A DNA stretch of 64,000 nt from Clostridia bacterium (GTDB lineage Bacteria; Bacillota; Clostridia; Oscillospirales; CAG-272). The notes beneath the pieces are model-generated. The model did not search any database. It was not told where the DNA came from and saw only the letters and a list, made by a program, of their open reading frames with translations. The position numbers were made by a program, and so were the translations under genes. The stretch spans positions 4,107 through 68,106 of the forward strand of contig JAGATW010000028.1 of NCBI GenBank assembly GCA_017621085.1, in the 5' to 3' direction. This document shows positions 8,940-23,586 of the stretch, in pieces (positions within the stretch are counted from its first letter, which is position 1; every line of letters starts with the position of its first letter).

Positions 8940-9938
8940 TTATTTTTTACTAGTTTCTCTTATAACCATACCAATTACATCGTCTACCGTCAGCTTTTCG
9001 TTTACTGCGGTGTAATTGATTTTAATTCTATGTCTTAATACAGGACGAGCTAAAGCATTTATATCCTCGTATGAAACGTTATAATTACCGTTTATCAGTG
9101 CTCTTACCTTGGCACATGTAATCAACGCCTGAGCTGCACGAGGTGATGCTCCGTACTTAATGTACTTCTTTGCAGATTCAGGAGACTTGCTAAGCTCCCT
9201 ATGTGTGTTTGATACAAGGTTAACCGCATAGCGAACAATATCATCAATAACAGGCACTTGTGATGCCAGCTTTCTCATTTCCAGGATTGTAGGTCCGTCT
9301 ACAACAGCGTTTGCCGTTTCATCAAGGGTAATTTGTGTCATATTTACGATATCAACAAGCTCATCGTCACTTGGAAATTCCATTATAAGCTTGAAAACAA
9401 AACGGTCCATTTGCGCTTCAGGCAATGGATAGGTACCATCCTGCTCTATCGGGTTTTCAGTAGCCAATACAAAAAACGGCTCGTTTAACTTATATGTTTG
9501 ATTACCAACGGTTATTTTGTGCTCCTGCATTACCTCAAGCATTGCTGACTGTGTCTTTGGTGTGGCACGGTTAATCTCATCGGCTAAAACCAAATTTGCA
9601 AAAATTGGACCCTTACGGAAGGAGCTAACCATCTTTCCGTCAGCATCCTTTTCTATAACATTTGTACCTGTTACATCGGATGGCATCAGGTCAGGCGTAA
9701 ACTGGATTCTGGAGAAGGGGAGACTTAGTGTTCTCGCCAAGGAACGGACAAGACGGGTTTTTCCAACGCCCGGAACGCCCTCCAAAAGAACATTTCCTCC
9801 TGCAATAATTGCAATAATAATGTTGTCTACTATCTCGTTTTGACCTACCACATCCTTGCGTAGCTCGGTCTTGATTAAACTCACTGTTTCGCTAAACTTC
9901 TTTACTTTTTCTATATTTTCAACATTTGGCTGTTTCAT
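8940..9938 (-). CDS. MoxR-family AAA+ ATPase
   Basis: Walker A LLEGVPGVGKT and Walker B LVLADEINRATPKTQSAMLEVMQE. Typical MoxR length (332 aa) and typical position upstream of DUF58. Confidence 0.9.
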   Translation of the reverse strand: MKQPNVENIEKVKKFSETVSLIKTELRKDVVGQNEIVDNIIIAIIAGGNVLLEGVPGVGKTRLVRSLARTLSLPFSRIQFTPDLMPSDVTGTNVIEKDADGKMVSSFRKGPIFANLVLADEINRATPKTQSAMLEVMQEHKITVGNQTYKLNEPFFVLATENPIEQDGTYPLPEAQMDRFVFKLIMEFPSDDELVDIVNMTQITLDETANAVVDGPTILEMRKLASQVPVIDDIVRYAVNLVSNTHRELSKSPESAKKYIKYGASPRAAQALITCAKVRALINGNYNVSYEDINALARPVLRHRIKINYTAVNEKLTVDDVIGMVIRETSKK

Positions 9939-9964
9939 TTCCTATTTCCTCATTCCTTGAAATC

Positions 9965-11431
9965 TTATTCACCCTTTGGTGTAGTCAATACTGAAAAATA
10001 TTTTTCCAATATTTTTGCCAGCTCCTCTGAAATCTCTCCGATAGCTATCATTTCGGTAATTTTACCATCGTAACGACCTATTATCGTTCCATATTCAACA
10101 TAAATCTCTGATATGTCCTTTTCGGGCTCGAGCTTTGGGTCAATTACTATATCATTGCTTCCGAACAGGGTTTCTCCCGTTCCAAAGCCTCCGTCATCAC
10201 CCTGCTCAGGTCTACCCTCTGGCTCATCGGTTACCGTATCATCCCCCTGAGACTCATCCTTCAAGTCCTCCTCGGTCAATCCAAAGATGCGCATCAGCTC
10301 ATTAACAACATGAATTTTAACATCCTCATTAAGCCTTTGCGTTGGAAGAATTTCACGTATTTTCTTTGGTGTGTCTGTGTTCAGAAGGCTATCAAGCTTA
10401 GTTGTAATGTAGCTTTCTGAATATGTATCATCCTCGGATATGGCGAGTAATACATCAAAAATTTCCTGCATAGCCATGCAAAGCTTGTCCTCGGACGGCA
10501 TTTTGGAATTCTTCAACAGAGCCCCAAGCTCATCCTTTAAGGAGATAATCTCTCCTTTGGTTTTGTCCTCGATGAGAGCAGTACATATTGTATTTAGTTC
10601 GGCTACCGTTGCATCAACGCTTAAGCTATACATATCATAAGCAAGATTTTTCAAATGTGCATTGCTCGACTTCTCAGCATAAATGTAAAACGCATAGGTT
10701 GTGTTAACTGTATTTATAATCCCTTGCACATTCTTTATTGAGGAAATGACATAGGTTTTCATATCCTCCATATACTCAATCTCATCCAGCTTTGACAGCA
10801 AAAGCGTCAGCTCAGCAATAACAGGCGCCTTGGCGCTGTCTTGAAGGTTTGATTCTTCAACCTCGCGAATCAAAGCCTCCAAAGCAATTTTATGATGGTC
10901 TGTAGCCTCAAACTCCTCCTTGGGAGGTGGCTCGGGATCGGTATTGTCAGGCGGTGAATCTATAGGATCATCCTCCTTAAGCTGTAATACTACAATCGCA
11001 CCTACCAGCAATGCAATTGAAAGAACGAAGGCAACTATTGTCAAAGCTATGCTCTTCCATTCCGGCTTGATTGTTTCGTTGTTCAGTGCCGAATCTGCAT
11101 CCTGTCTTTGAAGCTCTTTTATATCCCCGTCATCATCTCGATATGCTACCATGGTTTCAATTTTCTCATTCAACCCATAGCGCCTGTCTATTTTCCTGGC
11201 AATTTTTATATCAGACCTCCACAACAAGAAGAACAATGCCAAGCCCAATAGTATGCCCGATGATACGCCGATTAGCAGAATATATGCAAGAAGCAGGCTT
11301 ATCCATTCATAGCCGTCCAAAATCAATAAAACTGCTGTTACCGTTAAAGATAACGCGATTCCAGACAAAACGGACTTAATTATTGTTTCGATTAAAAATT
11401 GTCTTTTAAATCGCTTAAAGCCCTCACCCAT
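9965..11431 (-). CDS. Three-TM membrane protein with a long acidic helical C-terminal domain, function unknown (first gene of the operon)
   Basis: 488-aa ORF preceded by RBS AGGGGGA. Hydrophobic segments are near residues 20-70 and 125-150, followed by D/E/P-rich and helical sequence. Paralog at 55185..56675 with a conserved C-terminus (ITEM..GEISEELA.IL.KY.SVL.TP.G). Confidence 0.75.
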   Translation of the reverse strand: MGEGFKRFKRQFLIETIIKSVLSGIALSLTVTAVLLILDGYEWISLLLAYILLIGVSSGILLGLALFFLLWRSDIKIARKIDRRYGLNEKIETMVAYRDDDGDIKELQRQDADSALNNETIKPEWKSIALTIVAFVLSIALLVGAIVVLQLKEDDPIDSPPDNTDPEPPPKEEFEATDHHKIALEALIREVEESNLQDSAKAPVIAELTLLLSKLDEIEYMEDMKTYVISSIKNVQGIINTVNTTYAFYIYAEKSSNAHLKNLAYDMYSLSVDATVAELNTICTALIEDKTKGEIISLKDELGALLKNSKMPSEDKLCMAMQEIFDVLLAISEDDTYSESYITTKLDSLLNTDTPKKIREILPTQRLNEDVKIHVVNELMRIFGLTEEDLKDESQGDDTVTDEPEGRPEQGDDGGFGTGETLFGSNDIVIDPKLEPEKDISEIYVEYGTIIGRYDGKITEMIAIGEISEELAKILEKYFSVLTTPKGE

Positions 11432-11468
11432 CGTTTTTCCCCCTTTGAACGATATATATATTTTTAAT

Positions 11469-11497
11469 ATTTTATCATATTAATATAGCAAAGTCAA
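11469..11497 (-). promoter_or_regulatory. Predicted sigma-A-type promoter of the copy-A MoxR operon
   Basis: On the minus strand: TTGACT, 17 nt, TAAAAT, about 40 nt upstream of the start codon at 11431. Confidence 0.5.
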
Positions 11498-11612
11498 GAA
11501 ATATTTCCTTATTTACATATATTTAACAGAATGTAAAAGACGGATTAACATTGTTTTTCTTTTTGAAGCCGATGCTCTCCATATTCGCCGAAATTTTTTT
11601 ACAATTTGAAAG

Positions 11613-11641
11613 TTGAATGTTAATTATTTTTGTGGTACAAT
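11613..11641 (+). promoter_or_regulatory. Predicted promoter of the copy-A two-component/plsY operon
   Basis: TTGAAT, 17 nt, TACAAT, with a TG-extended -10 (TGgTACAAT). Confidence 0.45.
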
Positions 11642-11699
11642 TGTTTATATTCAGTTTATTTTGCTGATGTATGATTTTCACCGAGTGATGGAGGGATTT

Positions 11700-12374
11700 A
11701 TGTTTCAGATTCTAGTTGTTGACGATGATAAGAACACGCGTCTTTTATTGCGCGCTGTTCTTGAAAATGCAGGATACACTGTAAGCACCGCTTGTGACGG
11801 AATTGAAGCGCTTTCCGTTCTGGACAAAGAGCATATAGACTTAATTGTATTGGATATTATGATGCCAAACATGGATGGCTACGAATTAACTAAAACCATT
11901 CGTGAAAGTCAAAGCAACATGCCAATTCTTATGATTTCAGCTAAGCAATTGCCTGCTGACAAGCATAAGGGCTTTATAGTCGGAACGGACGATTATATCA
12001 CAAAGCCAATTGATGATGAAGAAATGCTTTTTAGAATCAAAGCTCTGTTGCGTCGGGCTAAAATTGCAAGTGAGCATCGAATTAAGGTAGGCGAGGTTAT
12101 TCTGGATTACGATTCCTTAACCGTAACCAAAAACGGCGAAGTGTACGAGCTTCCTCAAAAGGAATTTCTTTTGCTTTTCAAGCTTCTTTCCTTTCCCGGA
12201 AAGATTTTCACAAGAATACAATTGATGGATGAAATATGGGGCTCTGACAGTGAGACCGGATGGGAAACCGTTACCGTTCATATTGGCAGATTGCGCAAAA
12301 GGTTTGAGGGCTGGGAGGAATTCCAAATTGAAGCTGTGCGAGGACTTGGATACAAGGCGGTGAAAAAGCTGTGA
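11700..12374 (+). CDS. OmpR/PhoB-family response regulator
   Basis: Start moved to the ATG at 11700 (MFQILVVDDDKN), which follows RBS GGAGGGA and matches the paralog start MFNILVVDDDKN. Receiver motifs are DD..., VLDIMMP and ISAK. Winged-helix C-terminus has TVHIGRLRKRF and RGLGYK. Confidence 0.9.
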   Translation: MFQILVVDDDKNTRLLLRAVLENAGYTVSTACDGIEALSVLDKEHIDLIVLDIMMPNMDGYELTKTIRESQSNMPILMISAKQLPADKHKGFIVGTDDYITKPIDDEEMLFRIKALLRRAKIASEHRIKVGEVILDYDSLTVTKNGEVYELPQKEFLLLFKLLSFPGKIFTRIQLMDEIWGSDSETGWETVTVHIGRLRKRFEGWEEFQIEAVRGLGYKAVKKL

Positions 12375-13453
12375 AATACACAAACAAGAAAGATGCAAAA
12401 AACATTCGAAAGCTCACCCTGGTTTTTTCACTCATCGTTTTAATTGTTTTAATTGTTGTTCTCGGGCTATCCTCTTTGACTGCCTATATTCTTGCAAAAA
12501 TGCATTTGCTATCAGATGGCAATGAAGGCATTCAAGTTTCACATATCATACTATTCATGGCAATCACCAGCTTGGTAATGGGAACTATTATCTCGATTAT
12601 TACAAGCAAAATGATACTTAGTCCGTTGAATATGATAACCTCTAAAATCAACAGCTTAGCCTCCGGTAATTTTGGAACGAGAGTTGATTTTGATGAAATT
12701 GTAACCAGAGTTCCTTCTTTTTCAGAGCTTTCCTCTGTTTTCAATAAGCTGTCTGAGGAGCTTCAAAACACCGAAATGCTTAGAAGTGACTTTATTAACA
12801 ATTTTTCACACGAATTCAAAACGCCCATAGTTTCCATCTCAGGCTTTGCTAAGCTACTTAAAAAAGGGAATTTGACTGATGAGCAAAGGCGTGAATATTT
12901 GGATGCCATTGAGGAAGAATCTCTTCGCCTTGCGTATATGGCAACCAATGTGTTAAACCTTACCAAAATTGAAAACCAATCTATTTTGACTGATATTTCC
13001 AGTTACAATGTCTCCGAGCAGATTCGTTCTTGTATTTTACTGCTTGAGGGTAAGTGGTCAAAAAAGAATTTGGAATTTCAACTGGAGATAGAGGAGCATT
13101 CTATCAGCGCATGCGAAGAGCTTCTCAAGCAGGTTTGGATTAACCTTATCGACAATGCCATAAAGTTTTCCAATGACGGTCAGTTTATCACCATCTCTTC
13201 TCAGGATAAAGGTCAATACCTTTGCTTTTCAATCACAAACTACGGCATAGAGATTCCCAAGACCAAGCTGGACAAGATTTTCAACAAGTTTTATCAGTGT
13301 GATGAGTCTCACTCTACCCATGGAAATGGTATAGGACTTTCTATTGTTAAAAAAATCGTTTATTTACACAACGGTGAAATTAAGGTAGTTAGTGAAAACA
13401 ACTCTGTTTCCTTTCACATCTCACTACCAAAGAAACCTAATGGAGTAAAATAA
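12371..13453 (+). CDS. Sensor histidine kinase, two TM helices with a very short external loop (intramembrane-sensing type)
   Basis: GTG start overlaps the response regulator stop (GTGA). H-box FSHEFKTPIVSI, N-box NLIDNAIKFS and G-box GNGIGLSIV are present. Only about 15 residues lie between the two N-terminal hydrophobic helices. Confidence 0.9.
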   Translation: MKYTNKKDAKNIRKLTLVFSLIVLIVLIVVLGLSSLTAYILAKMHLLSDGNEGIQVSHIILFMAITSLVMGTIISIITSKMILSPLNMITSKINSLASGNFGTRVDFDEIVTRVPSFSELSSVFNKLSEELQNTEMLRSDFINNFSHEFKTPIVSISGFAKLLKKGNLTDEQRREYLDAIEEESLRLAYMATNVLNLTKIENQSILTDISSYNVSEQIRSCILLLEGKWSKKNLEFQLEIEEHSISACEELLKQVWINLIDNAIKFSNDGQFITISSQDKGQYLCFSITNYGIEIPKTKLDKIFNKFYQCDESHSTHGNGIGLSIVKKIVYLHNGEIKVVSENNSVSFHISLPKKPNGVK

Positions 13454-14127
13454 TGAATCCTATTTTTAAAGTTTTAATTTGTATTATTTCCGGATATTTG
13501 ATAGGCACAATAAACCCTTCCTACATTATGGGACGGATAAACGGTATTGACATACGAAAAAAGGGCTCCGGTAACGCAGGCGCATCAAACGCTCTTATTA
13601 TGTTTGGCAAGATAGCCGGTGTTTTTTGTGCTTTATTTGATATATTCAAAGCTGTTATCGCCATATATTTAACTTCAAGTATTTTCTTTCCTTCCTTTAA
13701 GCTTTCGTTTGTTATAACCGGTGTGTCCACAATTTTAGGACACATGTTCCCTTTTTATATGAAGTTCAAGGGTGGCAAGGGACTTGCCAGTCTCGGCGGT
13801 GTTGTCCTTGCATTTGACTGGCGCGTTTTTCTGATTCTTTTGTCGATAGAAATAGTTATTGTTTTGATTTCTGACTACATATGCTTCGTGCCATTGTCTG
13901 CATCTGTTGCTTTTCCAATCATTTACGGTATAATGGAAAAAGACATAATCAGCTCTTTGATTTTCCTTCTAATGACTGTAGCCATATTCTATAAGCACAT
14001 AGAAAACCTTTCCAGAATTCGCAACGGTACAGAGTTACATTTCAGCTACTTGTGGAACAAGGATAAGGAGTTGGAGCGAATGAACGAAAACGATGCTCCT
14101 TTGGATACCAATATTACAAAAAAATAA
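13453..14127 (+). CDS. plsY: PlsY-family glycerol-3-phosphate acyltransferase paralog
   Basis: All three PlsY blocks are present: GSGNAGASNA, KFKGGKGLASLGG and HIENLSRIRNGTE. The protein is multi-TM. TAATG overlap with the kinase stop suggests translational coupling. Confidence 0.8.
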   Translation: MNPIFKVLICIISGYLIGTINPSYIMGRINGIDIRKKGSGNAGASNALIMFGKIAGVFCALFDIFKAVIAIYLTSSIFFPSFKLSFVITGVSTILGHMFPFYMKFKGGKGLASLGGVVLAFDWRVFLILLSIEIVIVLISDYICFVPLSASVAFPIIYGIMEKDIISSLIFLLMTVAIFYKHIENLSRIRNGTELHFSYLWNKDKELERMNENDAPLDTNITKK

Positions 14128-14167
14128 AATTCGGAGGTGTCGGCTTATGTCGATTATCTCCGAATTT
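14127..14167 (+). terminator. Hairpin between plsY and the lipid kinase gene, copy A (terminator or attenuator)
   Basis: 10-bp stem AAATTCGGAG / CTCCGAATTT followed by T-rich TGTTTATTTTTGGTTTATTTTGTG. An extended -10 (TGcTAAAAT) follows at 14192..14200. Confidence 0.5.
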
Positions 14168-14232
14168 GTTTATTTTTGGTTTATTTTGTGATGCTAAAAT
14201 TCAATCATAATCAATTTGAATGGAGACTAATT

Positions 14233-15111
14233 ATGAGCAGAATTTGTGTTTTCTTTAACCCTCTTTGTAAAGCTGATTGTAACAGTGCAATTGAATCCCT
14301 TTTCCCCACCGATACCAAGGACTACTTCGACGTAACAGACGCGTTAGATTATAGTGCAATCATCAGCGAGCTGGAAAATTCCGACAAAATAATGGTTTGC
14401 GGTGGAGACGGAACACTTAACAGGTTTGTTAACGATATATATGATTTAGATATTAAAAACGATATTCTCTATTATGCGACAGGAACAGGAAATGACTTCT
14501 TAAGAGATATTGGACTCGGTCAAGAACGCGTTCCTATAAAAATAAACGACTATATTTCAAAGCTACCCGTAGTAACTGTTAAAGGAAAAAGCTATAGATT
14601 TTTAAACGGTGTCGGTTACGGAATTGACGGATATTGCTGTGAGGTGGGAGATAGGCTCCGCAAAACCTCTAAAAAGCCTATCAATTATACTTCCATTGCT
14701 ATAAAAGGACTACTGTTTTACTATAAGCCTACCGATGCGACAGTCACCGTTGACGGAGTTGAATATAAATTCAAAAAGGTTTGGATTGCACCAACTATGG
14801 CAGGAAGATACTACGGTGGCGGTATGCTCCCTGCGCCCAACCAAAGACGAGAGGATAGAGAAAAGCATGTTACACTTACCGTAATGCACAGTTCGGGAAA
14901 GCTCAAAACCTTGATGATATTCCCCTCCCTGTTCAAGGGTGAGCACGTAAAGCACACTAAGAATGTTACCGTCTTAGAGGGAAAAAGCATCTCTGTCAAA
15001 TTCAACAGGAATGTAGCTCTTCAAATTGACGGTGAAACAATTCTTGATGTTTCGGGCTATGATGTGCAGTTAGCCGATATTTTTGAAAAAAGCTCGCTAA
15101 GTAAGGCATAA
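14233..15111 (+). CDS. Diacylglycerol-kinase catalytic-domain lipid kinase (DagK/YegS/BmrU-like)
   Basis: Start moved to the ATG at 14233 (MSRICVFFNPL), matching the paralog start MGKIYALFNPL. Motifs are VCGGDGTLNRF, YYATGTGNDFLRD and LQIDGE. Confidence 0.8.
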   Translation: MSRICVFFNPLCKADCNSAIESLFPTDTKDYFDVTDALDYSAIISELENSDKIMVCGGDGTLNRFVNDIYDLDIKNDILYYATGTGNDFLRDIGLGQERVPIKINDYISKLPVVTVKGKSYRFLNGVGYGIDGYCCEVGDRLRKTSKKPINYTSIAIKGLLFYYKPTDATVTVDGVEYKFKKVWIAPTMAGRYYGGGMLPAPNQRREDREKHVTLTVMHSSGKLKTLMIFPSLFKGEHVKHTKNVTVLEGKSISVKFNRNVALQIDGETILDVSGYDVQLADIFEKSSLSKA

Positions 15112-15114
15112 ATT

Positions 15115-15142
15115 AAAAAAGATGGTTTTCACCATCTTTTTT
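15115..15142. terminator. Bidirectional rho-independent terminator
   Basis: AAAAAAGATGGT-tttc-ACCATCTTTTTT between convergent genes. Confidence 0.75.
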
Positions 15143-15935
15143 ATTTTTCCTCAAACAGATCCAAATCGGGCTTTTCAATCTCTATGTCTCTAGATGTGCT
15201 AATATCAATCGTCCGAATTTCATTATATCTTATACCGGCAGTTTCGGAAACGGTCTCGTATTTTATCCTCTTCATTACTCCTTCAGCGGTATAATACATA
15301 GTTACCTTCATCTCTGTTGCATCGCCAAGCTTTTCATAAGAATTGCTTGATGACAGCAGGTCTTTATATTCTTGCTCGTTAAAAGAGATTTCCACCTTGT
15401 ACAGCCTTCCTTCTCTTATAAACCTATTATACATAAATTTTTCATAAGGAATAGATATGAACATATGTTCAGTTTTGAATTTATTTGTTTTATACTTGGA
15501 TTCATATTCGCTGTATGCAAGTGATTCTTTTATTTTAGTACCTTGATTGGAGCTATATACTATTCCATTTATGTACCACATCTCCTGAGCTTCATCGCCT
15601 TCGCCTTCTTTACTCAGGCGCATATACTCCTCGTTGTCCTTTTTAACTATGGTACATAATTCGATTTTCTGCAAGGTATCTTTCTCGCTGAAAATTTTTG
15701 TTGTCGATGAATACTCTATCTCACGCCTTGTAGCTGATATTATTCTTTCGCTTTCTTTGATATATAAGGAATATGACGAATTGCTGTTCAAATAGTTAAG
15801 CTTCTCTCCATCTCCTGTCACATTGCTAACAGTAGTATTGTTACCATCACCAACCTCAATATAATCAGATTCGCACGAGGTAGCTATACCCACTAGCAGT
15901 ACAAGACAAAGGATAAGCAGAATTCTCTTTACCAT
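15141..15935 (-). CDS. Hypothetical lipoprotein
   Basis: 264-aa ORF with signal peptide and lipobox (LLVGIATSC). No recognisable catalytic motif. Confidence 0.6.
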   Translation of the reverse strand: MVKRILLILCLVLLVGIATSCESDYIEVGDGNNTTVSNVTGDGEKLNYLNSNSSYSLYIKESERIISATRREIEYSSTTKIFSEKDTLQKIELCTIVKKDNEEYMRLSKEGEGDEAQEMWYINGIVYSSNQGTKIKESLAYSEYESKYKTNKFKTEHMFISIPYEKFMYNRFIREGRLYKVEISFNEQEYKDLLSSSNSYEKLGDATEMKVTMYYTAEGVMKRIKYETVSETAGIRYNEIRTIDISTSRDIEIEKPDLDLFEEK

Positions 15936-16104
15936 ATTCTTTCTCCGTAAATAGTTCTTTTGTATTTATACAGTATAACACTTTCGACAAATAAATACAA
16001 GTTCTTACTGCTTTTTTATTTTTTTACCACTGAAATTATTATGTTGAAAAGATTTTCATTATGTGATATAATAAATTAAAGAATTCATTTTACGGAGTTT
16101 TTTG

Positions 16105-18279
16105 ATGAATAAGATTTTATTAACTTTACTTCTCGCGTTATTAGCTATGCTTGCTCTATGCTCCTGCGGGGACTGCAAGCACAGGTGGAAAACCGATGAC
16201 TGTGAGGAAGGAATGACCTGCTCTCTTTGCGGAGATACAAAGAGCGCTGAGCACGACTGGAAGGAAGCGAATTGCGTTTCTCCAAAAACATGTCGCGTAT
16301 GCAAAAAAACAGAGGGTGATATAGGAGATCACATTTGGTCTGAGGAAACCTGCTTGAAATCCAAAAGCTGTTCCATCTGCAAGCGTTCCACAGATCCCAT
16401 CCCTCACGACTGGCAAGATGCCACCTGCTATTCTCCAAAGACCTGTGCCCGTTGCAATCTTACCGAGGGTGAGATTGGTGATCACGAATGGTCCACTGCC
16501 ACTTGTCTTGAGCCGAGTGTGTGCAGGTTTTGCAATTTAGTTGATGACACGCCAGCATCTCATAGATGGGTTTTTGTTGACTGTGAAACTCCTCGTTATT
16601 GTAAATACTGTAGTACAGTGGAGGAGGATGCTCCCGGTCACAAGTGGATAGAAGCAACCTGCACAGACGCATCGTACTGCAACAAATGTAAGGTGATAAA
16701 GGGAACAGCCCTGGGCCACGCTTGGCAGGAGCCAAGCTGTACAGAGCCTAAAAATTGCTCACGATGCATGTTAACAGAGGGAGAGCCTCTTGGACACAAA
16801 TGGACTTTGAGCCAGGTGATAGCTCCAAGCTGTTCTGTCGGAAAGGAAATAAACACCTGTATCTGCGGAGAAACAGATATAATCACATCTCCCGCCAGCA
16901 TCAGTTATCATAAAAGCGACACAGATGGTACTTGTACCGTTTGCAACACAAAATTTGACACCTCTAAAATGACTTTAAAATCCTTAACAGTCGGAGAGCA
17001 TTATTTTGTTGAAAAGGAAGCAATTTTTACCAGCTCCGAAACCACTAACACAATTTACAAGCCTCTTACTTATGAGGATATCGGTATGCCTATCATTGAT
17101 TTGAATGGCGATATTTCCAAGGTAAGCAAATCATATGTTGTTACAATTCCATTTTCTTATAATGACGGAGAACAGTCCTTTGAGTGCTTTGCTGAGGTAA
17201 AGGTTCAAGGAGCGTCCAGCGCAGGATACCCTAAAAAGAATTACTCGATTAAGCTAGTCAACGAGCTTGGAGAAAAGAACAAGGTTAAGCTCGTTAAGGG
17301 GTGGGGAAAGCAACACAAATATTGCATGAAGGCAAACTACGTGGATTTTTCACAAGCCAGAAACGTCGTTTCTGCTCAGATTTTCGGTGATATTGTTCGC
17401 TCACGAGGTCTGGAAGATGAATTATCAAAAGCTCCAAACGGAGGAGCAATTGACGGTTTCCCTATCCTTGTCTACAATGAAGGCGATTTTTTGGGGCTTT
17501 ATACCATGAATATCCCTAAGGATAAATGGATGTTTGATATGAAGGACAGCGATGAAAAGAATCAAGCCATTTTAATGGGTGAGCATTGGAATTCTTCTGT
17601 CGCTTTCAGGCAGCCGATGTCCTATAATATGGGTTCATCAGGATGGGAGCTTGAATACGCCTCAAACGAGGATAGCTTAATCGACAACAGCACCAGCTGG
17701 GTTGTAGATAGCATGAATCGGGTTATCAACTTTGTTATTAACAACGACGGTCAGGCATTCATTGACGGAATTGATGATTACATTGATGTAGATAAATGCA
17801 TAGACACTATGATTTATACGTTTTTCATTTGTGCCGATGATAATCTGAGTAAAAATATTTTATGGGTTACATTTGACGGCAAAATCTGGTTCTCCAGCGT
17901 TTATGATATGGATGGAACATGGGGAATGAAGTGGAACGGCTCTATCGAATTTAATGAAAATACACATCTTATCTCAAATTTGGCAAAGAAAAATAACACA
18001 AACTATAACTTACTATGGGAAAGGCTTTACGATAACTTCTACGATAGAATAGTAGAACGATACAAGGAGCTACGCGAAGGACCTTTGTCAATTTCCAACA
18101 TTTCATCAAGATTCATAGAATTCTTTAATAAAATTCCCGATATAGTTTATGATGCTGAAAAGTCCAGATGGCCTTCAGTTCCCAGCCACTCCACTAACAA
18201 TTTCAACCAAATTATCACCTTTGCCAACAAGCGAATTGAAAAGATGGATGATATCCTAATAAACAATAATTTGGAATAG
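16105..18279 (+). CDS. Secreted or lipoprotein CotH-family (atypical kinase fold) protein with nine N-terminal Cys/His repeats
   Basis: ATG at 16105 follows GGAG. Signal peptide LLALLAMLALCSC. The C-terminal two thirds carry CotH-like blocks (KKNYSIKL, KANYVDFSQARN, LWVTFDGKIWFSSVYDMDGTWG). The N-terminus has 9 repeats of HxW-x4-C-x5-C-xx-C. Confidence 0.7.
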   Translation: MNKILLTLLLALLAMLALCSCGDCKHRWKTDDCEEGMTCSLCGDTKSAEHDWKEANCVSPKTCRVCKKTEGDIGDHIWSEETCLKSKSCSICKRSTDPIPHDWQDATCYSPKTCARCNLTEGEIGDHEWSTATCLEPSVCRFCNLVDDTPASHRWVFVDCETPRYCKYCSTVEEDAPGHKWIEATCTDASYCNKCKVIKGTALGHAWQEPSCTEPKNCSRCMLTEGEPLGHKWTLSQVIAPSCSVGKEINTCICGETDIITSPASISYHKSDTDGTCTVCNTKFDTSKMTLKSLTVGEHYFVEKEAIFTSSETTNTIYKPLTYEDIGMPIIDLNGDISKVSKSYVVTIPFSYNDGEQSFECFAEVKVQGASSAGYPKKNYSIKLVNELGEKNKVKLVKGWGKQHKYCMKANYVDFSQARNVVSAQIFGDIVRSRGLEDELSKAPNGGAIDGFPILVYNEGDFLGLYTMNIPKDKWMFDMKDSDEKNQAILMGEHWNSSVAFRQPMSYNMGSSGWELEYASNEDSLIDNSTSWVVDSMNRVINFVINNDGQAFIDGIDDYIDVDKCIDTMIYTFFICADDNLSKNILWVTFDGKIWFSSVYDMDGTWGMKWNGSIEFNENTHLISNLAKKNNTNYNLLWERLYDNFYDRIVERYKELREGPLSISNISSRFIEFFNKIPDIVYDAEKSRWPSVPSHSTNNFNQIITFANKRIEKMDDILINNNLE
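16174..16878 (+). repeat. Nine tandem repeats of about 78 nt (26 aa) encoding HxW-x4-C-x5-C-xx-C modules inside the CotH gene
   Basis: Counted in the translation: CKHRW.., HDWKEANC.., HIWSEETC.., HDWQDATC.., HEWSTATC.., HRWVFVDC.., HKWIEATC.., HAWQEPSC.., HKWTLSQ... Confidence 0.85.
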
Positions 18280-19232: not shown

Positions 19233-21635
19233 TTAATATCTAAAAGGAATATCATACACTGAGATTATTGAAATATTCTTCAGTAGCTCGTCGGCTTCAA
19301 GACTTGTTTTTGCAAAAACCGTATACGGCTGAGCACTTGACAAATCAAAATAATTATCTTCAAGCTCTACATCGAAATTTTTGAAGGTTATTTGAACATT
19401 TTTTGCAAGCACATCAGACACAAATACAAGACATACACCGCCATCGGTTTTATTGACTGTAACCTGTATTTGAGGCTTAAGAAATTTGAAGTATTTCGGC
19501 TTTGTACCCAGCTCTACATTCCTTGCTATCAGCTTGCCATTTTCATCATACAGCTCAGCATAAAAATATGTGTCGTTATGCCCACTAAACTCGCTGTTTT
19601 GCATCGTCTCCACATCCAGAGATGTGAGCGGTTTTATCGACACGGGCTTGGACATTTCGTATATTTTGTCAAAATTATTCTTAGTTACTCCCACCTTTAT
19701 GAATCCGTGGAATTCACCCATTGTTTCGTTAGCTATATTTACAGAAACGCAATCGCTATCGTTGAATATACCAAGAGAAACCGGTTGGTAAAACTTTTTT
19801 GCAAAGAAATGAAGCGCCTTGTATCTACCGTAATAGTCGATGCTTGACCAGGATGCTACCGGCCACGGGTCATTCAGCTGCCAATAAATTGAACCCATTG
19901 TGTATCCACGGCATCTTCTGAAATGCTCAACTCCATATTTTATTGCCATTGCTTGATTTAATTGAGAAGCATATACGGTTGTTTCCAAATCCTTTGGCAT
20001 TTGGTATGCTTCAGCCAAATATCTGAGAAGCTTTACATTTCCATGCCAATGCTTTTGGTGACTCTCCATAGTATATGAAAGCAAGTTGCGTTCTTCCAGT
20101 GGACAAAATTCATCAATTGTTTTAATGGACGGCAGACTTTCAAAGCCATATTCTGAACAGAAGCGAGGCTTGTGCTTTCTGTATTCATCAAACTCACAAT
20201 TGCCATTCCACACATCCCAAAAATGAACATCTCCTCGCGTGTAATCCCGGGGGTCATCAAAGCTTCCGCCTGATGTTGGACTTGAGGGAGTGTTTGAAAT
20301 GTACGGTGCGTGCTGTTTGCACACAGATGGCAATATTTCCTCATATAATTTCAAATAGTCCTCACGGACCTGACTATCGTTGCCATCGACACCCTCCCAG
20401 AAGCATATTGCCTCTTCCATCTCGTTGTTTCCACAGAGTAATCCCAGTGAGGCATGATGCCTTATTCTCTTTACATTATATGTAGCCTCCAGGACAAATT
20501 CCTTTTCCATATCCTTGTTTAGCCAAATGTTAGCACAAGCTACCATAAAATCCTGCCAAACAATCAACCCGTATCTGTCACACAGCTCATAAAAGTAGTC
20601 ACAGGGATAGTATGCTCCTCCCCACACTCTGATACAGTTGAAATTGGCAAATACGCAATCCTGTATCAATCTTTCCAGTCGTTCATTAGTCTCACGGGAC
20701 AAAAGACTGTCTATCGGTACATAGTTTGCTCCCATGGCGAATATTTTCACGCCATTTACTACAAAGCAAAATTCTTGACCTTCTTCGTCTTTTTCCTGAC
20801 TCAGCTCCAATGTGCGTAATCCAATAGATTTTGTTATTCTATCTATCTCCACATTGTTATGATACAAAACAAAGGATATATCATATAGCTCTTGCTTACC
20901 GTACCCGTTTGGCCACCAAATTCTTGGATTGTCGATTAACACCTCTCCATTATTGTTTTGAAGCGCTACTGTTTTTCCATCTATCTCGCATCTTATTTCA
21001 GTATCAATAGAATTGTGCTTAGTTGATGCCGAAAGCTCGAGCTGTACTGTATTTTTCTTATGATGCTGAGCAATATAAACATCCTCCAGTTTGTCTATAT
21101 TGTAGCAGTGTACCTCTACCGGACGAAAAATCCCTATATTAGGTAGCTTTGGCGCCCAGTCCCAGCCCGACATATAAAACGCCTTCCTCAAATGCGATGC
21201 GCCCGGCAATGTATCACCATTCATATACAAGTGATGAACACTCTCCATTTTATCAAAATAATTTATAGGAGACTTGAATTCCAGCTTGATTTCATTTTTA
21301 TTTTTTGCTATGCTCTTGATATCATACTCATACATTCGGTGCATATTCATTACGCTGTCAAGAAGGATGCCGTTCAAATATATGTCGCAAATGGTGTCAA
21401 GTCCATAGAAGCTTATTTCAATTTTTTCACATTCAAGGTCTTCTTCTGTCAGAATAAATTCGGTATAAAATGTACAATCCATTTTCGATAAATTGCATAT
21501 TTTTTCCTCATTATTTCCGTAATATGGGTCTTCGATTATCCCATGATTATATAATACGCTGTACATATCGCAAGGCACAGAGCAGCTTAGCTCTGAATGC
21601 TTGTCAAAATTCATTTTCCAATCGTTTATTATCAT
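19233..21635 (-). CDS. GH2 beta-mannosidase
   Basis: Blocks MSGWDWAP, LIVWQDFMVACA and CSEYGFESLP. Start moved to the second ATG (MIINDWK) because GGAGG lies 5 nt upstream. No signal peptide. Confidence 0.8.
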   Translation of the reverse strand: MIINDWKMNFDKHSELSCSVPCDMYSVLYNHGIIEDPYYGNNEEKICNLSKMDCTFYTEFILTEEDLECEKIEISFYGLDTICDIYLNGILLDSVMNMHRMYEYDIKSIAKNKNEIKLEFKSPINYFDKMESVHHLYMNGDTLPGASHLRKAFYMSGWDWAPKLPNIGIFRPVEVHCYNIDKLEDVYIAQHHKKNTVQLELSASTKHNSIDTEIRCEIDGKTVALQNNNGEVLIDNPRIWWPNGYGKQELYDISFVLYHNNVEIDRITKSIGLRTLELSQEKDEEGQEFCFVVNGVKIFAMGANYVPIDSLLSRETNERLERLIQDCVFANFNCIRVWGGAYYPCDYFYELCDRYGLIVWQDFMVACANIWLNKDMEKEFVLEATYNVKRIRHHASLGLLCGNNEMEEAICFWEGVDGNDSQVREDYLKLYEEILPSVCKQHAPYISNTPSSPTSGGSFDDPRDYTRGDVHFWDVWNGNCEFDEYRKHKPRFCSEYGFESLPSIKTIDEFCPLEERNLLSYTMESHQKHWHGNVKLLRYLAEAYQMPKDLETTVYASQLNQAMAIKYGVEHFRRCRGYTMGSIYWQLNDPWPVASWSSIDYYGRYKALHFFAKKFYQPVSLGIFNDSDCVSVNIANETMGEFHGFIKVGVTKNNFDKIYEMSKPVSIKPLTSLDVETMQNSEFSGHNDTYFYAELYDENGKLIARNVELGTKPKYFKFLKPQIQVTVNKTDGGVCLVFVSDVLAKNVQITFKNFDVELEDNYFDLSSAQPYTVFAKTSLEADELLKNISIISVYDIPFRY

Positions 21636-21705
21636 ATATGCCTCCATTTATATTATACATTAATATTATCATAGTTTTTCGTCTGTTGCAACATATTTTG
21701 CTAAT

Positions 21706-21736
21706 AAAAATGGCACTCGTTTTGAGTGCCATTTTT
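21706..21736 (-). terminator. Terminator after the DUF4091-like gene
   Basis: Stem AAAAATGGCACTC / GAGTGCCATTTTT. Confidence 0.7.
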
Positions 21737-21747
21737 ATTGTTTTATT

Positions 21748-23364
21748 TCAGTTTATAAGCGCTTGTTGAGCAAGCTTTCTTATTTTTTTGAGTGCTTTTA
21801 TACTGCGTGGGTAATCAGTAAATGTCTTTTTAAAGCCGTTGTCAAGGAGAAGCTTTTCGGCATTTGCCCTGCCTATTTTCTTCTCTAAGCATTTAAACAG
21901 CTTGTAATCCTGCAATCCGTCAAAAAAGTTCTCAAAACGAATAGAATCAAGAGCGCCATCCCTTCCCGGATAAACGCAGTAGCAGTCTCCGCTTTGCAAT
22001 CCTCCCCCTGCATCGGTAATCAAATAAGGGTCAACTGCTTCATCCGAAAGCACCGAATTATAGAAATTATATCCCCAATGCAAGAAGCCCTTTATATCAT
22101 TCAGATACATTTGCATTCCTAAAACTCTGATTCTCTCTCCCGGCATAGACATATATCTGTTAGATAAATACGAATGCGACTCACTGCAACAATAATAAGC
22201 CCATAAATCAGGAGTATTATTTTCAAGAAAGGTTTGTATGTGAGCAGTTGATGAGATTGCAACATCTACCAGCCCTTTCTTGTAAAACTCATAATCGCTA
22301 AGCGCATCCATTACAATTGCATCAGGAGCGTATTTCTTAAAGATATTCTTTGCCCCCATGTAGGAATCAAGGCATTGCTCGTATGGCTCGTCTGAAAGAT
22401 GGAAACGACAGCTTTGGTACAGCTGTTCTTCCTTTAACACCTCTATAAGCTTGGGCAAGAATGCTCCTAAAAAGGCTTCGTAATCTTCTCCTGTTGCATT
22501 GGTTTCCCAACCGAAAATTCTTTTTAGCCTTCCATTTACCCGTGCTACTATCTTCGGTGCGTGCTTAGCTCCCCATTGAGTAAACAAATGACTCATTTCA
22601 AAATATTTGATGCCAAGCTCTTTAACCTTTTTCATAAATGAAATGAGCCGATTGAAATCAAATGAATATCCGTTTTCTGTTTTTGTGACATCTACAAGCT
22701 GCACAGTCAGTCGTTCGCTTCCATGCCTTGTGTCCAGTGGTGGCGTAAACATAGGTACTAGGAGCATATTCATACCGTGTCTTGTCGCTGATTTAATGAA
22801 ATCATACATTATTCTATTGTATTTCGATGAAAACACCTTTAAATTATAATAATTAGCTAATGAATCATAGTGAAACCAGTTAGTGTAAATAAGGTCGCTT
22901 TCCCCCAAATAATAATCAAGAACTGTCACCTTATAATCGGTTTTTCCTAATACATATCCATTTTGCTCTAATGTTATCTCAATTGGATAAACACCCGGCT
23001 TCAAGTCTCCCTTCACTGTAAACCACAGGCTGTTATATGAGTCCTGTCTTGCCGTGGGCTTCCGTTTTTCGCATGAGCACAAAACATCGGGGCACAAAAA
23101 TGCCTTCTTGCTCAAATAATAATCATCGCCATCTCCCAAAACCGGAGTTGTACAGGAAACATATTCAACCTGTCTGAATGATATGTATTTTTTAATTGGA
23201 CTTTTTATCTTTACCTCTATTTCCTTTTGAAGCCAATCAATCTTATAGGCAACCTGAAATGACAGAGTTTCGTCTCTTGCCATTGTATTCTCTTTTTCAA
23301 GCATTCTAGGCTTTTTATCAACCAATACCTTTTCTTCAGCACAAATCGTATAAATTTCGTTCAT
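21748..23364 (-). CDS. DUF4091-like putative glycoside hydrolase (GH123-like; tentative)
   Basis: Long ORF with start moved to the ATG at 23364 (MNEIYTI), which follows GGAGGAG. The family call rests on my recollection of DUF4091-type sequence and on glycosidase context only. Confidence 0.45.
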   Translation of the reverse strand: MNEIYTICAEEKVLVDKKPRMLEKENTMARDETLSFQVAYKIDWLQKEIEVKIKSPIKKYISFRQVEYVSCTTPVLGDGDDYYLSKKAFLCPDVLCSCEKRKPTARQDSYNSLWFTVKGDLKPGVYPIEITLEQNGYVLGKTDYKVTVLDYYLGESDLIYTNWFHYDSLANYYNLKVFSSKYNRIMYDFIKSATRHGMNMLLVPMFTPPLDTRHGSERLTVQLVDVTKTENGYSFDFNRLISFMKKVKELGIKYFEMSHLFTQWGAKHAPKIVARVNGRLKRIFGWETNATGEDYEAFLGAFLPKLIEVLKEEQLYQSCRFHLSDEPYEQCLDSYMGAKNIFKKYAPDAIVMDALSDYEFYKKGLVDVAISSTAHIQTFLENNTPDLWAYYCCSESHSYLSNRYMSMPGERIRVLGMQMYLNDIKGFLHWGYNFYNSVLSDEAVDPYLITDAGGGLQSGDCYCVYPGRDGALDSIRFENFFDGLQDYKLFKCLEKKIGRANAEKLLLDNGFKKTFTDYPRSIKALKKIRKLAQQALIN

Positions 23365-23586
23365 TTCTTGCTCCTCCAAATGAAATTCCTTTATAGAAAG
23401 TATATCATAAATCAATGCACAATTCAATAAAAGCGCACAAGATTTCTCATTATATTAAAAAAGCAAGAAACGGATTTCACCCGTATCTCGCTCTTTATTA
23501 ACGTTTATTGATAATATTCAAGTAAGTAGCTTATGCTAGCTTCCAAGTGGTCCTTGATATAAGATAGATGCCTGCCTATATCTTTC

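What the first reader, a model, noticed from the sequence alone, without database searches (positions are those of the whole stretch)
16174..16878. Nine tandem 26-residue HxW-C-C-xxC repeats form the N-terminus of an exported CotH-family protein
- Directly after the signal peptide, the protein contains nine consecutive units. Examples are HDWKEANCVSPKTCRVCKKTEGDIGD, HDWQDATCYSPKTCARCNLTEGEIGD and HKWIEATCTDASYCNKCKVIKGTALG.
- Each unit has an invariant His, a Trp and three Cys.
- This 700-nt stretch is visibly more GC-rich than its surroundings, which explains the cluster of spurious antisense ORFs at 16059..16901.
- One His plus three Cys per unit is a zinc-knuckle-like ligand set.
- A beads-on-a-string array of such units on an extracellular CotH (atypical kinase fold) protein is unusual. 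It could be a metal-stabilised stalk or a binding array.
Basis: seen in the sequence. Interest (0 to 1): 0.6.

Follow-up and report, generated by a model that had tools for sequence, protein, structure and literature searches.

The report
Zinc-stapled stalk on CotH lipoprotein
The repeats are real: ten small His/Cys3 units, probably zinc-binding, most likely form a stiff stalk that holds a CotH kinase-like head away from the membrane anchor of a gut Clostridia surface lipoprotein; both the module and this layout are common but unnamed in domain databases.

Summary
The gene at 16102..18279 (+) encodes a 725-aa lipoprotein. After the lipobox come a cap Cys, eight canonical 24-26-aa units (H-x-W-x4-C-x5-C-x2-C), two divergent terminal units, and an intact CotH kinase-like domain.

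- **Observation:** confirmed, including the GC rise and the spurious antisense ORFs.
- **Not unusual:** the top 120 of more than 2000 CotH homologues nearly all share this layout with 5-11 units. The repeat alone hits 6084 cluster representatives, fused to many extracytoplasmic domains. No Pfam, NCBIfam or PDB entry covers it.
- **New here:** ligand book-keeping. First units of arrays carry an extra Cys or His, and last units lose the first Cys. Each metal site therefore probably uses C1 of unit i-1 plus His, C2 and C3 of unit i. That gives a continuous stapled rod, not beads on a string.
- **AlphaFold2:** no linker dips; no coordinates were available.
- **Closest published relative:** the predicted zinc-binding "periscope" rods ZBD1/ZBD2 (CTD2/CTD4) of the Thomasclavelia ramosa IgA protease. 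The link runs through a same-genome lipoprotein, not a direct profile match.

Metal binding and kinase activity are untested. This is a new variant of a recently described kind, of moderate interest.

The parts
16044..16072 (+). Sigma-A-type promoter-like site: TTGAAA, 17 nt, TG-extended TATAAT
   Evidence: 11 of 12 matches with TG before the -10 hexamer. This is a consensus match only.
16102..18279 (+). Gene for the 725-aa lipoprotein. The probable true start is ATG 16105, behind GGAG at 16094-16097.
   Evidence: P0002, a 99-100% identical 724-aa database protein, begins MNKILL.
16102..16167 (+). Sec-type lipoprotein signal peptide. The lipobox is L19-C20-S21-C22, with Cys22 the predicted lipidated residue.
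   Evidence: Read from the sequence. C22 is invariant in 95 orthologues. There is no twin-arginine motif.
16174..16176 (+). Cap Cys25 (C-x-H), the predicted fourth ligand of the first metal site
   Evidence: Cys at -2 of the first His in 93 of 95 orthologues, against L or I in internal units. In other architectures, Cys or His lies within 6 aa upstream in 136 of 181 first units against 82 of 1789 internal units.
16180..16794 (+). Eight canonical units of 24-26 aa, H-x-W-x4-C1-x5-C2-x2-C3, starting at aa 27, 51, 77, 102, 128, 154, 180 and 206
   Evidence: AF2 pLDDT is about 80-96. Each unit shows short strands at xW, at KTC(C2) and at xTE after C3.
16795..16908 (+). Unit 9, a long variant (aa 232-269): H232...C244...C253-x-C255, with longer beta-hairpins
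   Evidence: strands 234-240, 247-253, 258-263; H232 and C253 invariant; C244 in 94 of 95.
16909..16956 (+). Unit 10, a short terminal variant (aa 270-285): H270-x-S272-x5-C278-x2-C281
   Evidence: H270, C278 and C281 are invariant. Position 272 is Cys in 90 of 95 orthologues but Ser here.
16957..17196 (+). Beta-rich segment (aa 286-365) that leads into and packs with the CotH N-lobe
   Evidence: strands 290-295, 306-311, 314-321, 331-334, 347-354, 359-369; pLDDT above 90.
17197..18240 (+). CotH kinase-like domain (aa 366-713)
   Evidence: - Pfam PF08757, E=1.1e-24.
- Foldseek hits B. cereus CotH 5jda/5jd9, TM 0.78, E=3.5e-15.
- A profile of the six genome paralogues hits 5jd9 at E=1.4e-10.
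17839..17913 (+). Catalytic motifs: D580 (17839-41) and N585 (17854-56) in ADDNLSKN; D602 (17905-07) and D604 (17911-13) in YDMDGTWG
   Evidence: - D580, D602 and D604 are invariant in 95 orthologues and in six divergent paralogues; N585 is invariant in the orthologues.
- D580 aligns to the Asp of NFD, and D602/D604 to WDYD, of B. cereus CotH.
- In B. cereus these two Asp lie 23 residues apart, the same as B. subtilis D228 and D251 (PMC7821199). In this protein D580 and D602 lie 22 apart.
16059..16901 (-). Five antisense ORFs of 81-109 aa: spurious
   Evidence: One search lists them. One search shows that antisense stop codons are 2-8 fold rarer by frame in the GC-richer repeat region.

Best explanation
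The gene encodes a surface lipoprotein of a spore-forming-lineage gut Clostridia bacterium.

**Anchor and stalk**
- After Sec export and lipidation at Cys22, residues 25-285 fold outside the cell into ten small beta-hairpin units.
- Each unit has a C2-x2-C3 knuckle at a hairpin tip.
- Each unit probably binds one Zn(II), or a similar divalent metal, through Cys3His.
- The four ligands of site i are C1 of unit i-1 (the cap Cys25 for the first site) plus His, C2 and C3 of unit i.
- Neighbouring units are therefore stapled to each other, and the array is a continuous, fairly rigid rod.
- Its length would be roughly 20 nm if the rise per residue equals that published for the ZBD1 model (129 aa for about 110 A).
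- The rod acts as a spacer ('periscope'). It holds the C-terminal CotH domain away from the membrane, within or beyond the cell wall.

**Head**
- The CotH domain keeps its catalytic Asp/Asn and its metal-binding Asp residues.

**Shown versus inferred**
- Shown: gene, repeats, lipobox, CotH fold and motifs, family size, boundary statistics.
- Inferred: metal binding, which ligands share a site, rigidity, length, spacer role, and kinase activity with its substrate.
For: - **Ligand conservation:** His, C1, C2 and C3 are conserved in canonical units, and the tail ligands H232, C253, H270, C278 and C281 are invariant across 95 orthologues. Positions 2, 4, 5, 9, 10, 15, 16 and 19 vary freely.
- **C1 book-keeping in 244 proteins of other architectures:** C1 is present in 1859 of 1871 units that are followed by another knuckle, but in only 26 of 99 terminal units. 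There it is replaced mostly by Y, F or L.
- **Cap book-keeping:** an extra Cys (-2, -3, -5) or His (-2) precedes the first His in 136 of 181 first units, against 82 of 1789 internal units. The Cys/His interchange at the cap argues for a metal ligand rather than a disulfide.
- **Compensation:** orthologue P0350 lacks C244 but has a new Cys 3 residues before H270.
- **AF2:** the full protein has mean pLDDT 87.5. Cap plus 4 units has pLDDT 88.6, with blocks of 92-96 and no dips between units.
- **Position in the protein:** in 132 of 233 other proteins the array abuts a hydrophobic anchor (crude scan). Fusion partners are wall-compartment enzymes and sensors: polysaccharide deacetylase, SleB-like hydrolase, VanY, SpoIID, a rotamase (PF00639) domain, SBP_bac_3 and Ser/Thr kinases.
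- **Length variation:** unit number varies from 5 to 11 among full-length orthologues, in whole units.
- **Published parallel:** the ZBD1/ZBD2 (CTD2/CTD4) domains of the T. ramosa IgA protease are AF2-predicted rods. Their putative Zn sites lie at subdomain interfaces, and SAXS shows an extended rod (PMC12237041, PMC12415215). A same-genome lipoprotein joins ZBD-like segments (PDB 9qa6_A, E=6e-12) directly to window-type units.
- **CotH:**
Against: - No metal has been measured.
- No coordinates of the AF2 models were available, so ligand distances could not be checked.
- The boundary statistics count related sequences and rest on regex parsing. About a quarter of first units lack a cap, and about a quarter of terminal units keep C1.
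- In this orthologous group the last unit usually keeps a C1-like Cys272 that the model does not need.
- Direct profile comparison of the window-type units with the ZBD2 fragment is not significant (hhalign probability 0.8%).
- An ATP source for a kinase outside the membrane is unexplained.
- There is no conserved gene neighbour to suggest a substrate.
Confidence: 0.6

Rival explanations
1. Self-contained zinc knuckles. Each 26-aa unit binds its own metal through its own His, C1, C2 and C3, and the units are independent beads joined by flexible links.
For: - There are four ligands per period.
- The C2-x2-C3 hairpin knuckle is classical.
- About 26% of terminal units keep C1.
- Orthologues keep Cys272 in the last unit.
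Against: - It does not explain why terminal units selectively lose C1 (73 of 99) while keeping His, C2 and C3.
- It does not explain why first units gain an extra Cys or His (136 of 181).
- AF2 shows no confidence drop between units.
- Published models of the related ZBDs place the sites at subdomain interfaces (PMC12237041).
Confidence: 0.15
2. The array is primarily a binding or sensing surface, for example for glycans, host molecules or metal ions. On this reading the metal sites are scaffolding or are themselves the sensed ligand, and the array is not mainly a spacer.
For:
- In 101 of 233 proteins the array does not abut an anchor.
Against: - Apart from the ligands and a few structural residues (W3, A6, T7, P11, G22), positions are highly variable within and between proteins. 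There is no conserved surface patch.
- Unit number varies freely.
- The array is fused to many unrelated heads.
Confidence: 0.12
3. Metal-free cysteine-rich repeats, stabilised by disulfides or other cross-links.
For: - Cysteine-rich extracellular repeats are often disulfide-bonded.
- Other repeat lipoproteins in this scan were read that way (earlier notes e1-1050051 and e1-1341306, unrelated six-Cys modules).
Against: - There is an odd number of Cys per unit.
- There is one strictly conserved His per unit.
- Cys and His interchange at the cap position (56 Cys against 49 His at -2).
- The hosts are strict anaerobes of the gut or rumen.
- The IgA protease, which carries the related domains, has 24 Cys and no disulfides in its experimental structures (PMC12237041).
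Confidence: 0.07
4. A chain of redox-active iron centres (rubredoxin-like or Fe-S) that serves extracellular electron transfer.
For: - Cys-rich sites are regularly spaced on an extracellular rod.
- The environment is anaerobic.
Against: - The signal peptide is Sec-type and has no twin-arginine motif, so the protein is exported unfolded without a cofactor.
- The ligand set is Cys3His, with no ferredoxin or CxxCH haem motifs in this protein.
- The fusion partners are wall enzymes, not redox proteins.
Confidence: 0.03

Closest known systems
ZBD1/ZBD2 (PLoS Pathog 2025, PMC12237041), also called CTD2/CTD4 (PNAS 2025, PMC12415215), of the Thomasclavelia ramosa IgA protease: 'metal-associated periscope domains'
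   Same: - Extracellular and Cys/His-rich, with no disulfides.
- Small three-stranded sheets placed end to end.
- Putative tetrahedral Zn sites at the interfaces between consecutive sheets.
- Extended rod (ZBD1 is about 110 A for 129 aa; SAXS of CTD2).
- Proposed spacer role.
- A lipoprotein of this genome (contig C5) matches ZBD1/ZBD2 in PDB 9qa6_A at E=6e-12 and continues directly into window-type 26-aa units.
   Different: - ZBD subdomains are 34-56 aa, irregular, and mostly His2Cys2. Here the units are a regular 26-aa Cys3His form, with ten in a row.
- The ZBDs lie C-terminal, next to a sortase anchor. Here the array is N-terminal, next to a lipid anchor.
- Direct profile similarity to the window's units is not significant, so the link is transitive.
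- The ZBD metal sites are themselves only predicted.
Periscope or stalk repeats of Gram-positive surface proteins, such as the G5-E rods of SasG/Aap
   Same: - Tandem small beta modules without a large hydrophobic core form a rigid rod that projects a functional head.
- Repeat number is variable.
- The PNAS paper itself draws the comparison with SasG/Aap.
   Different: - No sequence or fold relation.
- G5-E repeats need no intramolecular metal. Zn mediates Aap dimerisation between molecules.
- Here the metal is proposed to be the structural core of each unit.
Zinc ribbons and zinc knuckles (for example the TFIIS C-terminal domain and rubredoxin-type knuckles)
   Same: - A CxxC knuckle at a beta-hairpin tip and a three-stranded mini-sheet.
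- The first unit (C-x-H...C-x2-C) looks like a minimal zinc ribbon.
- The only weak Foldseek and HMM neighbours are zinc modules.
   Different: - There is only one CxxC per unit, and the other half-site is split between neighbouring units.
- The location is extracellular.
- No significant match to any zinc-finger family (best Foldseek E=0.5; Pfam C1_1 is below its cut-off).
Spore-coat kinase CotH of Bacillus (PDB 5jd9/5jda; B. subtilis D228 and D251)
   Same: - Same Pfam family.
- Same fold (TM 0.78).
- Catalytic-loop Asp/Asn and the WDxD metal-binding Asp residues are conserved.
   Different: - 16% identity.
- This protein is exported and lipid-anchored, with a long N-terminal stalk.
- Bacillus CotH acts in the mother cell on the spore coat.
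- The upstream site is sigma-A-like, not sporulation-type (weak evidence).
- The substrate is unknown.

Membership tests
CotH (Pfam PF08757) | HMM score above the curated gathering threshold | tested here: met
   87.9 bits against 23.8; aa 366-713 cover profile positions 1-320 of 322.
CotH (Pfam PF08757) | Atypical protein-kinase-like fold of Bacillus CotH | tested here: met
   Foldseek hits 5jda/5jd9 at E=3.5e-15, TM 0.78 normalised to the target. The AF2 model has pLDDT mostly above 90 in this region.
CotH (Pfam PF08757) | Catalytic Asp (B. subtilis D228) and metal-binding Asp (D251) present | tested here: met
   - One search aligns D580 with the NFD Asp of B. cereus CotH, and D602/D604 with WDYD.
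- D580, D602 and D604 are invariant.
- The residue roles come from PMC7821199, which cites Nguyen 2016.
CotH (Pfam PF08757) | Ser/Thr kinase activity | not testable with these tools
   Needs an in vitro assay with labelled ATP and a D580 mutant.
Bacterial lipoprotein (Sec/SPII) | n-region, hydrophobic core and a lipobox [LVI]-x-[GAS]-C | tested here: met
   - MNKILLTLLLALLAMLALCSC: L19-C20-S21-C22.
- C22 is invariant, and the consensus is L-x-S-C in 95 orthologues.
- No signal-peptide predictor was available.
ZBD/CTD2-CTD4 'metal-associated periscope' rods of the T. ramosa IgA protease | Detectable sequence relationship to ZBD1/ZBD2 | tested here: inconclusive
   - Direct searches fail: phmmer and profile searches of the window array against PDB do not find 9qa6, and hhalign of A3 against ZBD2 gives probability 0.8%.
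- Indirect link: the same-genome lipoprotein on contig C5 hits 9qa6_A ZBD1/ZBD2 at E=6e-12. It carries window-type units right after that segment.
ZBD/CTD2-CTD4 'metal-associated periscope' rods of the T. ramosa IgA protease | Metal sites placed between consecutive beta-sheet subdomains | tested here: met
   Met only at the level of sequence book-keeping: the cap on first units and the loss of C1 in last units. The geometry was not checked because no coordinates were available.
ZBD/CTD2-CTD4 'metal-associated periscope' rods of the T. ramosa IgA protease | Zinc actually bound; extended rod in solution | not testable with these tools
   Needs ICP-MS and SAXS or a crystal structure of the array.
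C1 domain (Pfam PF00130) | Score above the gathering threshold over the full 53-position H-C6-H motif | tested here: not met
   19.2 bits against 26.5, covering only profile positions 1-19. In relatives the apparent hits are sums of partial matches with 0 qualifying stretches.
Classical zinc fingers, knuckles and ribbons (C2H2, CCHC, two-knuckle ribbon) | The family-specific ligand spacing, or a significant sequence or fold match | tested here: not met
   - The spacing H-x7-C-x5-C-x2-C fits none of them.
- PDB hits to C2H2 arrays reach E=1e-4 with the orthologue profile and E 0.1 or weaker otherwise. They are periodic-composition matches with low alignment confidence.
- Best Foldseek E=0.5.

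The most novel reading that the evidence does not exclude
The 26-aa H-x-W-x4-C-x5-C-x2-C unit is the minimal module of a very large, uncurated superfamily of extracellular metal-zipped rods, with at least 6000 clusters at 50% identity. In it every Zn site is shared between neighbours (C1 of unit i-1 plus His, C2 and C3 of unit i). The stalk can then only assemble outside the cell when metal is available, and its length is set in 26-aa steps. This would be a new structural principle for monoderm surface stalks. It would also place the predicted ZBDs of the IgA protease in the same superfamily as irregular members.
Probability: 0.45. Interest if true: 0.6.

Novelty: new variant of a known kind. 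Interest (0 to 1): 0.45.

Why it matters
- **Annotation gap.** The module sits in thousands of gut and rumen Clostridia surface proteins, including wall enzymes, sensor kinases, adhesin-like giants and CotH lipoproteins. It has no Pfam or NCBIfam model and no solved structure, and it generates false C1_1 and GDH_HM2 labels. A defined family would tidy the annotation of many proteins.
- **A testable structural rule.** If the shared-ligand rod is confirmed, it explains how anaerobes that lack disulfide chemistry build stiff extracellular stalks. It would also link surface-protein assembly to zinc availability in the gut.
- **An open question about CotH.** A large group of exported, catalytically intact CotH kinases has unknown substrates and no obvious ATP source outside the membrane.

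Tried and rejected
- **Domain libraries.** Pfam and NCBIfam scans of the protein and the array find nothing for the repeats. The C1_1 and GDH_HM2 labels on relatives are summed partial hits.
- **PDB by sequence, repeats.** Searches with the array, with a 4-unit profile and with the full orthologue profile give only weak periodic matches to C2H2 arrays and similar modules.
- **PDB by fold, repeats.** Foldseek of the 4-unit model finds nothing significant.
- **PDB by sequence, CotH.** Single-sequence phmmer of the CotH part misses 5jd9, and so does the orthologue profile. A profile of six divergent paralogues was needed.
- **Ligand geometry.** I looked for model coordinates in the Python box to measure ligand distances, but none are provided.
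- **Tandem Repeats Finder.** No DNA-level repeat.
- **Synteny.** None of the window's neighbours recurs near orthologues in the 80 related loci. Among the 29 full-length orthologue loci no neighbour cluster is shared by more than 8 of 29, so there is no operon partner.
- **Extra site in the CotH domain.** No co-loss between Cys272 and the conserved Cys362, 408, 566 or 577, so no evidence for an eleventh site.
- **Literature.** Searches for a named repeat family or for the function of exported bacterial CotH gave nothing specific. The PNAS 2025 paper by DOI-less route was readable, but the Nguyen 2016 PNAS paper is not held.
- **Direct link to ZBD2.** hhalign of the window-type profile against the ZBD2 fragment is not significant.
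Full report
**1. What is there**

The window holds one ORF at 16102..18279 on the + strand, 725 aa counted from TTG. A GGAG at 16094-16097 and the identical database protein P0002 (724 aa, MNKILL...) point to ATG 16105 as the real start. My numbering is therefore +1 relative to the database form. A sigma-A-like extended -10 promoter match lies at 16044-16072 (consensus match only).

The N-terminus is a Sec-type lipoprotein signal with lipobox L19-C20-S21-C22. Cys22 is invariant in 95 orthologues.

The parts then follow in order:
- a cap Cys25 in the context C-x-H;
- eight canonical units H-x-W-x4-C1-x5-C2-x2-C3 of 24-26 aa (aa 27-231);
- a 38-aa long variant (H232, C244, C253, C255);
- a short terminal variant (H270, S272, C278, C281);
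- a beta-rich segment;
- a CotH domain at aa 366-713 (Pfam E=1.1e-24).

Yes.
- In 1.52 million residues of six-frame ORFs of the whole genome, the looser pattern H.[WYF].{4}C.{5}C.{2}C occurs 21 times. All are in five ORFs, and eight are in this one.
- The units are old. Mean identity is 35% at protein level and 46% at DNA level, and there is no DNA tandem repeat.
- The region has 48% GC, against 38% for the CotH part and 37% for the window. The excess sits at codon position 2, so it follows from amino-acid composition.
- Antisense stop codons are 2-8 fold rarer by frame there. This accounts for the five antisense ORFs.

**3. The CotH head**

- AlphaFold2 on an alignment of 95 orthologues gave mean pLDDT 87.5.
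- Foldseek against the PDB returned B. cereus CotH (5jda/5jd9) first, with E=3.5e-15 and TM 0.78.
- A profile of the six CotH paralogues of this genome hits 5jd9 at E=1.4e-10. It aligns D580 (ADDNLSKN) with the catalytic-loop Asp, and D602/D604 (YDMDGTWG) with WDYD.
- In B. cereus the two Asp lie 23 residues apart, as do B. subtilis D228 and D251, the residues whose mutation inactivates CotH (PMC7821199). In this protein D580 and D602 lie 22 apart.
- D580, N585, D602 and D604 are invariant in the orthologues.

**4. How common is it?**

Very common.
- **CotH part.** It has more than 2000 homologues in the 5.8-billion-protein set. The top 120 (57-74% identical) nearly all show the same layout: lipobox, C-x-H cap, 5-11 units, CotH. 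The only names attached are 'CotH kinase family protein [Clostridia bacterium]'.
- **Repeat region alone.** It hits 6084 cluster representatives at E<=1e-3, and 425 at E<=1e-30. Some of these proteins reach 6716 aa.
- **Fusion partners.** Among mid-sized hits the array is fused to polysaccharide deacetylase, Ser/Thr kinase, dockerin, cohesin, Flg_new, DUF6273, LRR, SpoIID, SleB-type hydrolase, VanY, CAP, trypsin, a rotamase (PF00639) domain and SBP_bac_3.
- **Hosts.** They are gut and rumen Clostridia MAGs.
- **Taxonomic spread.** The 4-unit profile is found in 18 of 24 other species of the same genus, in 3 of 16 other families of the order, and in only 2 of 199 sampled genomes of the class. 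The module is lineage-enriched and patchy.
- **This genome.** It carries a paralogue of the same design on contig C48, three other repeat proteins, and six CotH genes in all. It also encodes SpoIVA and Spo0A.

**5. No existing family or structure**

- Pfam and NCBIfam have no model for the repeat.
- The precomputed C1_1 and GDH_HM2 labels on relatives are summed partial matches.
- Sequence and profile searches of the PDB give only weak periodic matches to C2H2 arrays.
- Foldseek of a confident 4-unit model (pLDDT 88.6) finds nothing. The best E is 0.5, and the weak neighbours are generic zinc modules.

**6. How the units probably work**

The consensus over 596 units is HxWxEATCxxPKTCxxCGxTEGEALG. 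Only the four ligands and a few structural residues are conserved. In the AF2 models each unit has short strands at xW, at KTC (ending in C2) and at xTE after C3. C2-x2-C3 is therefore a knuckle at a hairpin tip.

The informative evidence is at array boundaries.
- In 93 of 95 orthologues the first His is preceded at -2 by a Cys. Internal units have Leu or Ile there.
- In 244 proteins of other architectures, 136 of 181 first units have a Cys or His within six residues upstream. The counts are Cys -2: 56; His -2: 49; Cys -5: 15. Only 82 of 1789 internal units have one.
- C1 is present in 1859 of 1871 units that are followed by another knuckle. It is present in only 26 of 99 terminal units, which keep His, C2 and C3 (examples).
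- An n-unit array thus carries 4n ligands, with C1 offset by one unit. The simplest partition is site i = {C1(i-1) or cap, His(i), C2(i), C3(i)}.
- This is geometrically natural. C1(i-1) and His(i) flank the base of hairpin i-1.
- One orthologue that lacks C244 has a compensating Cys three residues before H270.
- The Cys/His interchange at the cap, the odd Cys count, the invariant His and the anaerobic hosts all favour metal ligation over disulfides.
- The Sec-type signal argues against pre-loaded Fe-S cofactors.

For this protein the rule predicts ten sites: {C25,H27,C40,C43}, {C34,H51,C64,C67}, and so on to {C213,H232,C253,C255} and {C244,H270,C278,C281}. I could not verify distances because model coordinates are not exposed.

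**7. Function**

- The 4-unit model shows no pLDDT dips between units (blocks of 92-96).
- Unit number varies in whole units among orthologues.
- Surface positions vary freely.
- In 132 of 233 other proteins the array abuts a hydrophobic anchor (crude scan).

Together these fit a stiff spacer better than a binding array. Scaling from the published ZBD1 model (129 aa, about 110 A; PMC12237041), 261 residues would span roughly 22 nm. That is of the order of a monoderm wall. This length is an inference.

No neighbour is conserved with the gene, so the CotH substrate remains open.

**8. Comparison with what is known**

- Both papers describe C-terminal Cys/His domains, called ZBD1/ZBD2 or CTD2/CTD4. 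They are AF2-predicted rods of small three-stranded sheets.
- The sheets are linked by putative zinc sites at subdomain interfaces.
- SAXS supports an extended rod, and no structural homologue was found.
- The authors call them a possible novel metal-binding fold and periscope domains (PMC12237041, PMC12415215).

I tested the link.
- The window's units do not match the protease directly.
- A lipoprotein of the same genome (contig C5) hits PDB 9qa6_A in ZBD1 and ZBD2 at E=6e-12. It continues without a break into window-type 26-aa units, which the window's unit HMM hits at 1e-6.
- The relation is therefore plausible but transitive.
- The concept of interface zinc sites and a rod or spacer is already published for one protein, as a prediction.

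What is new here:
- the regular 26-aa Cys3His form;
- the size and spread of the family;
- the CotH-lipoprotein architecture as a large orthologous group;
- the sequence-statistical evidence for shared ligands.

**9. Verdict**

The feature is real but not rare. I class it as a new variant of a recently described, still unvalidated kind, with moderate interest. Metal content, structure and kinase activity are the decisive missing experiments.

Noticed in passing
genome contig C48 (G000:C48, about 9400-11700, minus strand): A paralogue of the window gene has the same design: a 732-aa lipoprotein with a C-x-H cap, 8 units plus a tail, and CotH. The genome holds six CotH-domain genes in all. The other four (contigs C110, C86, C122, C13) have different N-termini.
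   Followed up: partly
relatives P0017, P0018, P0022, P0012: Precomputed Pfam labels C1_1 (PF00130) and GDH_HM2 (PF21079) on many proteins carrying this repeat are artefacts. The whole-protein score passes the cut-off by summing many partial matches, with 0 qualifying stretches.
   Followed up: yes
window 16915-16917 (aa 272): The last unit's C1-like position is Ser in the window protein but Cys in 90 of 95 orthologues. The shared-ligand model does not need this Cys. It shows no co-loss with the four conserved Cys of the CotH domain (C362, C408, C566, C577). Its high conservation is unexplained.
   Followed up: partly
window 15141-15935 (minus strand): A divergently transcribed 264-aa predicted lipoprotein (MVKRILLILCLVLLVGIATSC...) has no Pfam family. 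It is not conserved next to orthologues of the CotH gene.
   Followed up: partly
genome contig C5, ORF C5_+0_5271 (372 aa, runs off the contig end): This lipoprotein is made almost entirely of His/Cys units of at least three types in one array: an IgA-protease ZBD-like HWH type, the 26-aa window type, and a 41-aa type ([31 protein letters not shown]). It is the bridge between the window's repeat and the published ZBDs.
   Followed up: partly
P0115 (5478 aa, output): A giant protein alternates two unit types. One is H-x-Y-x3-C-D-x2-C-x2-C. The other lacks C1 but has an extra His (HW-x2-C-x2-C), so the extra His appears to take over the role of C1 for the next site. This is consistent with the 4-ligands-per-site book-keeping.
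   Followed up: no
window 19233-23427 (minus strand): Adjacent GH2 beta-mannosidase-like and GH123 genes lie downstream. Upstream (11613-15111) are a response regulator and histidine kinase pair, PlsY, and a YegS-like lipid kinase. None is syntenic with the CotH gene in relatives.
   Followed up: partly
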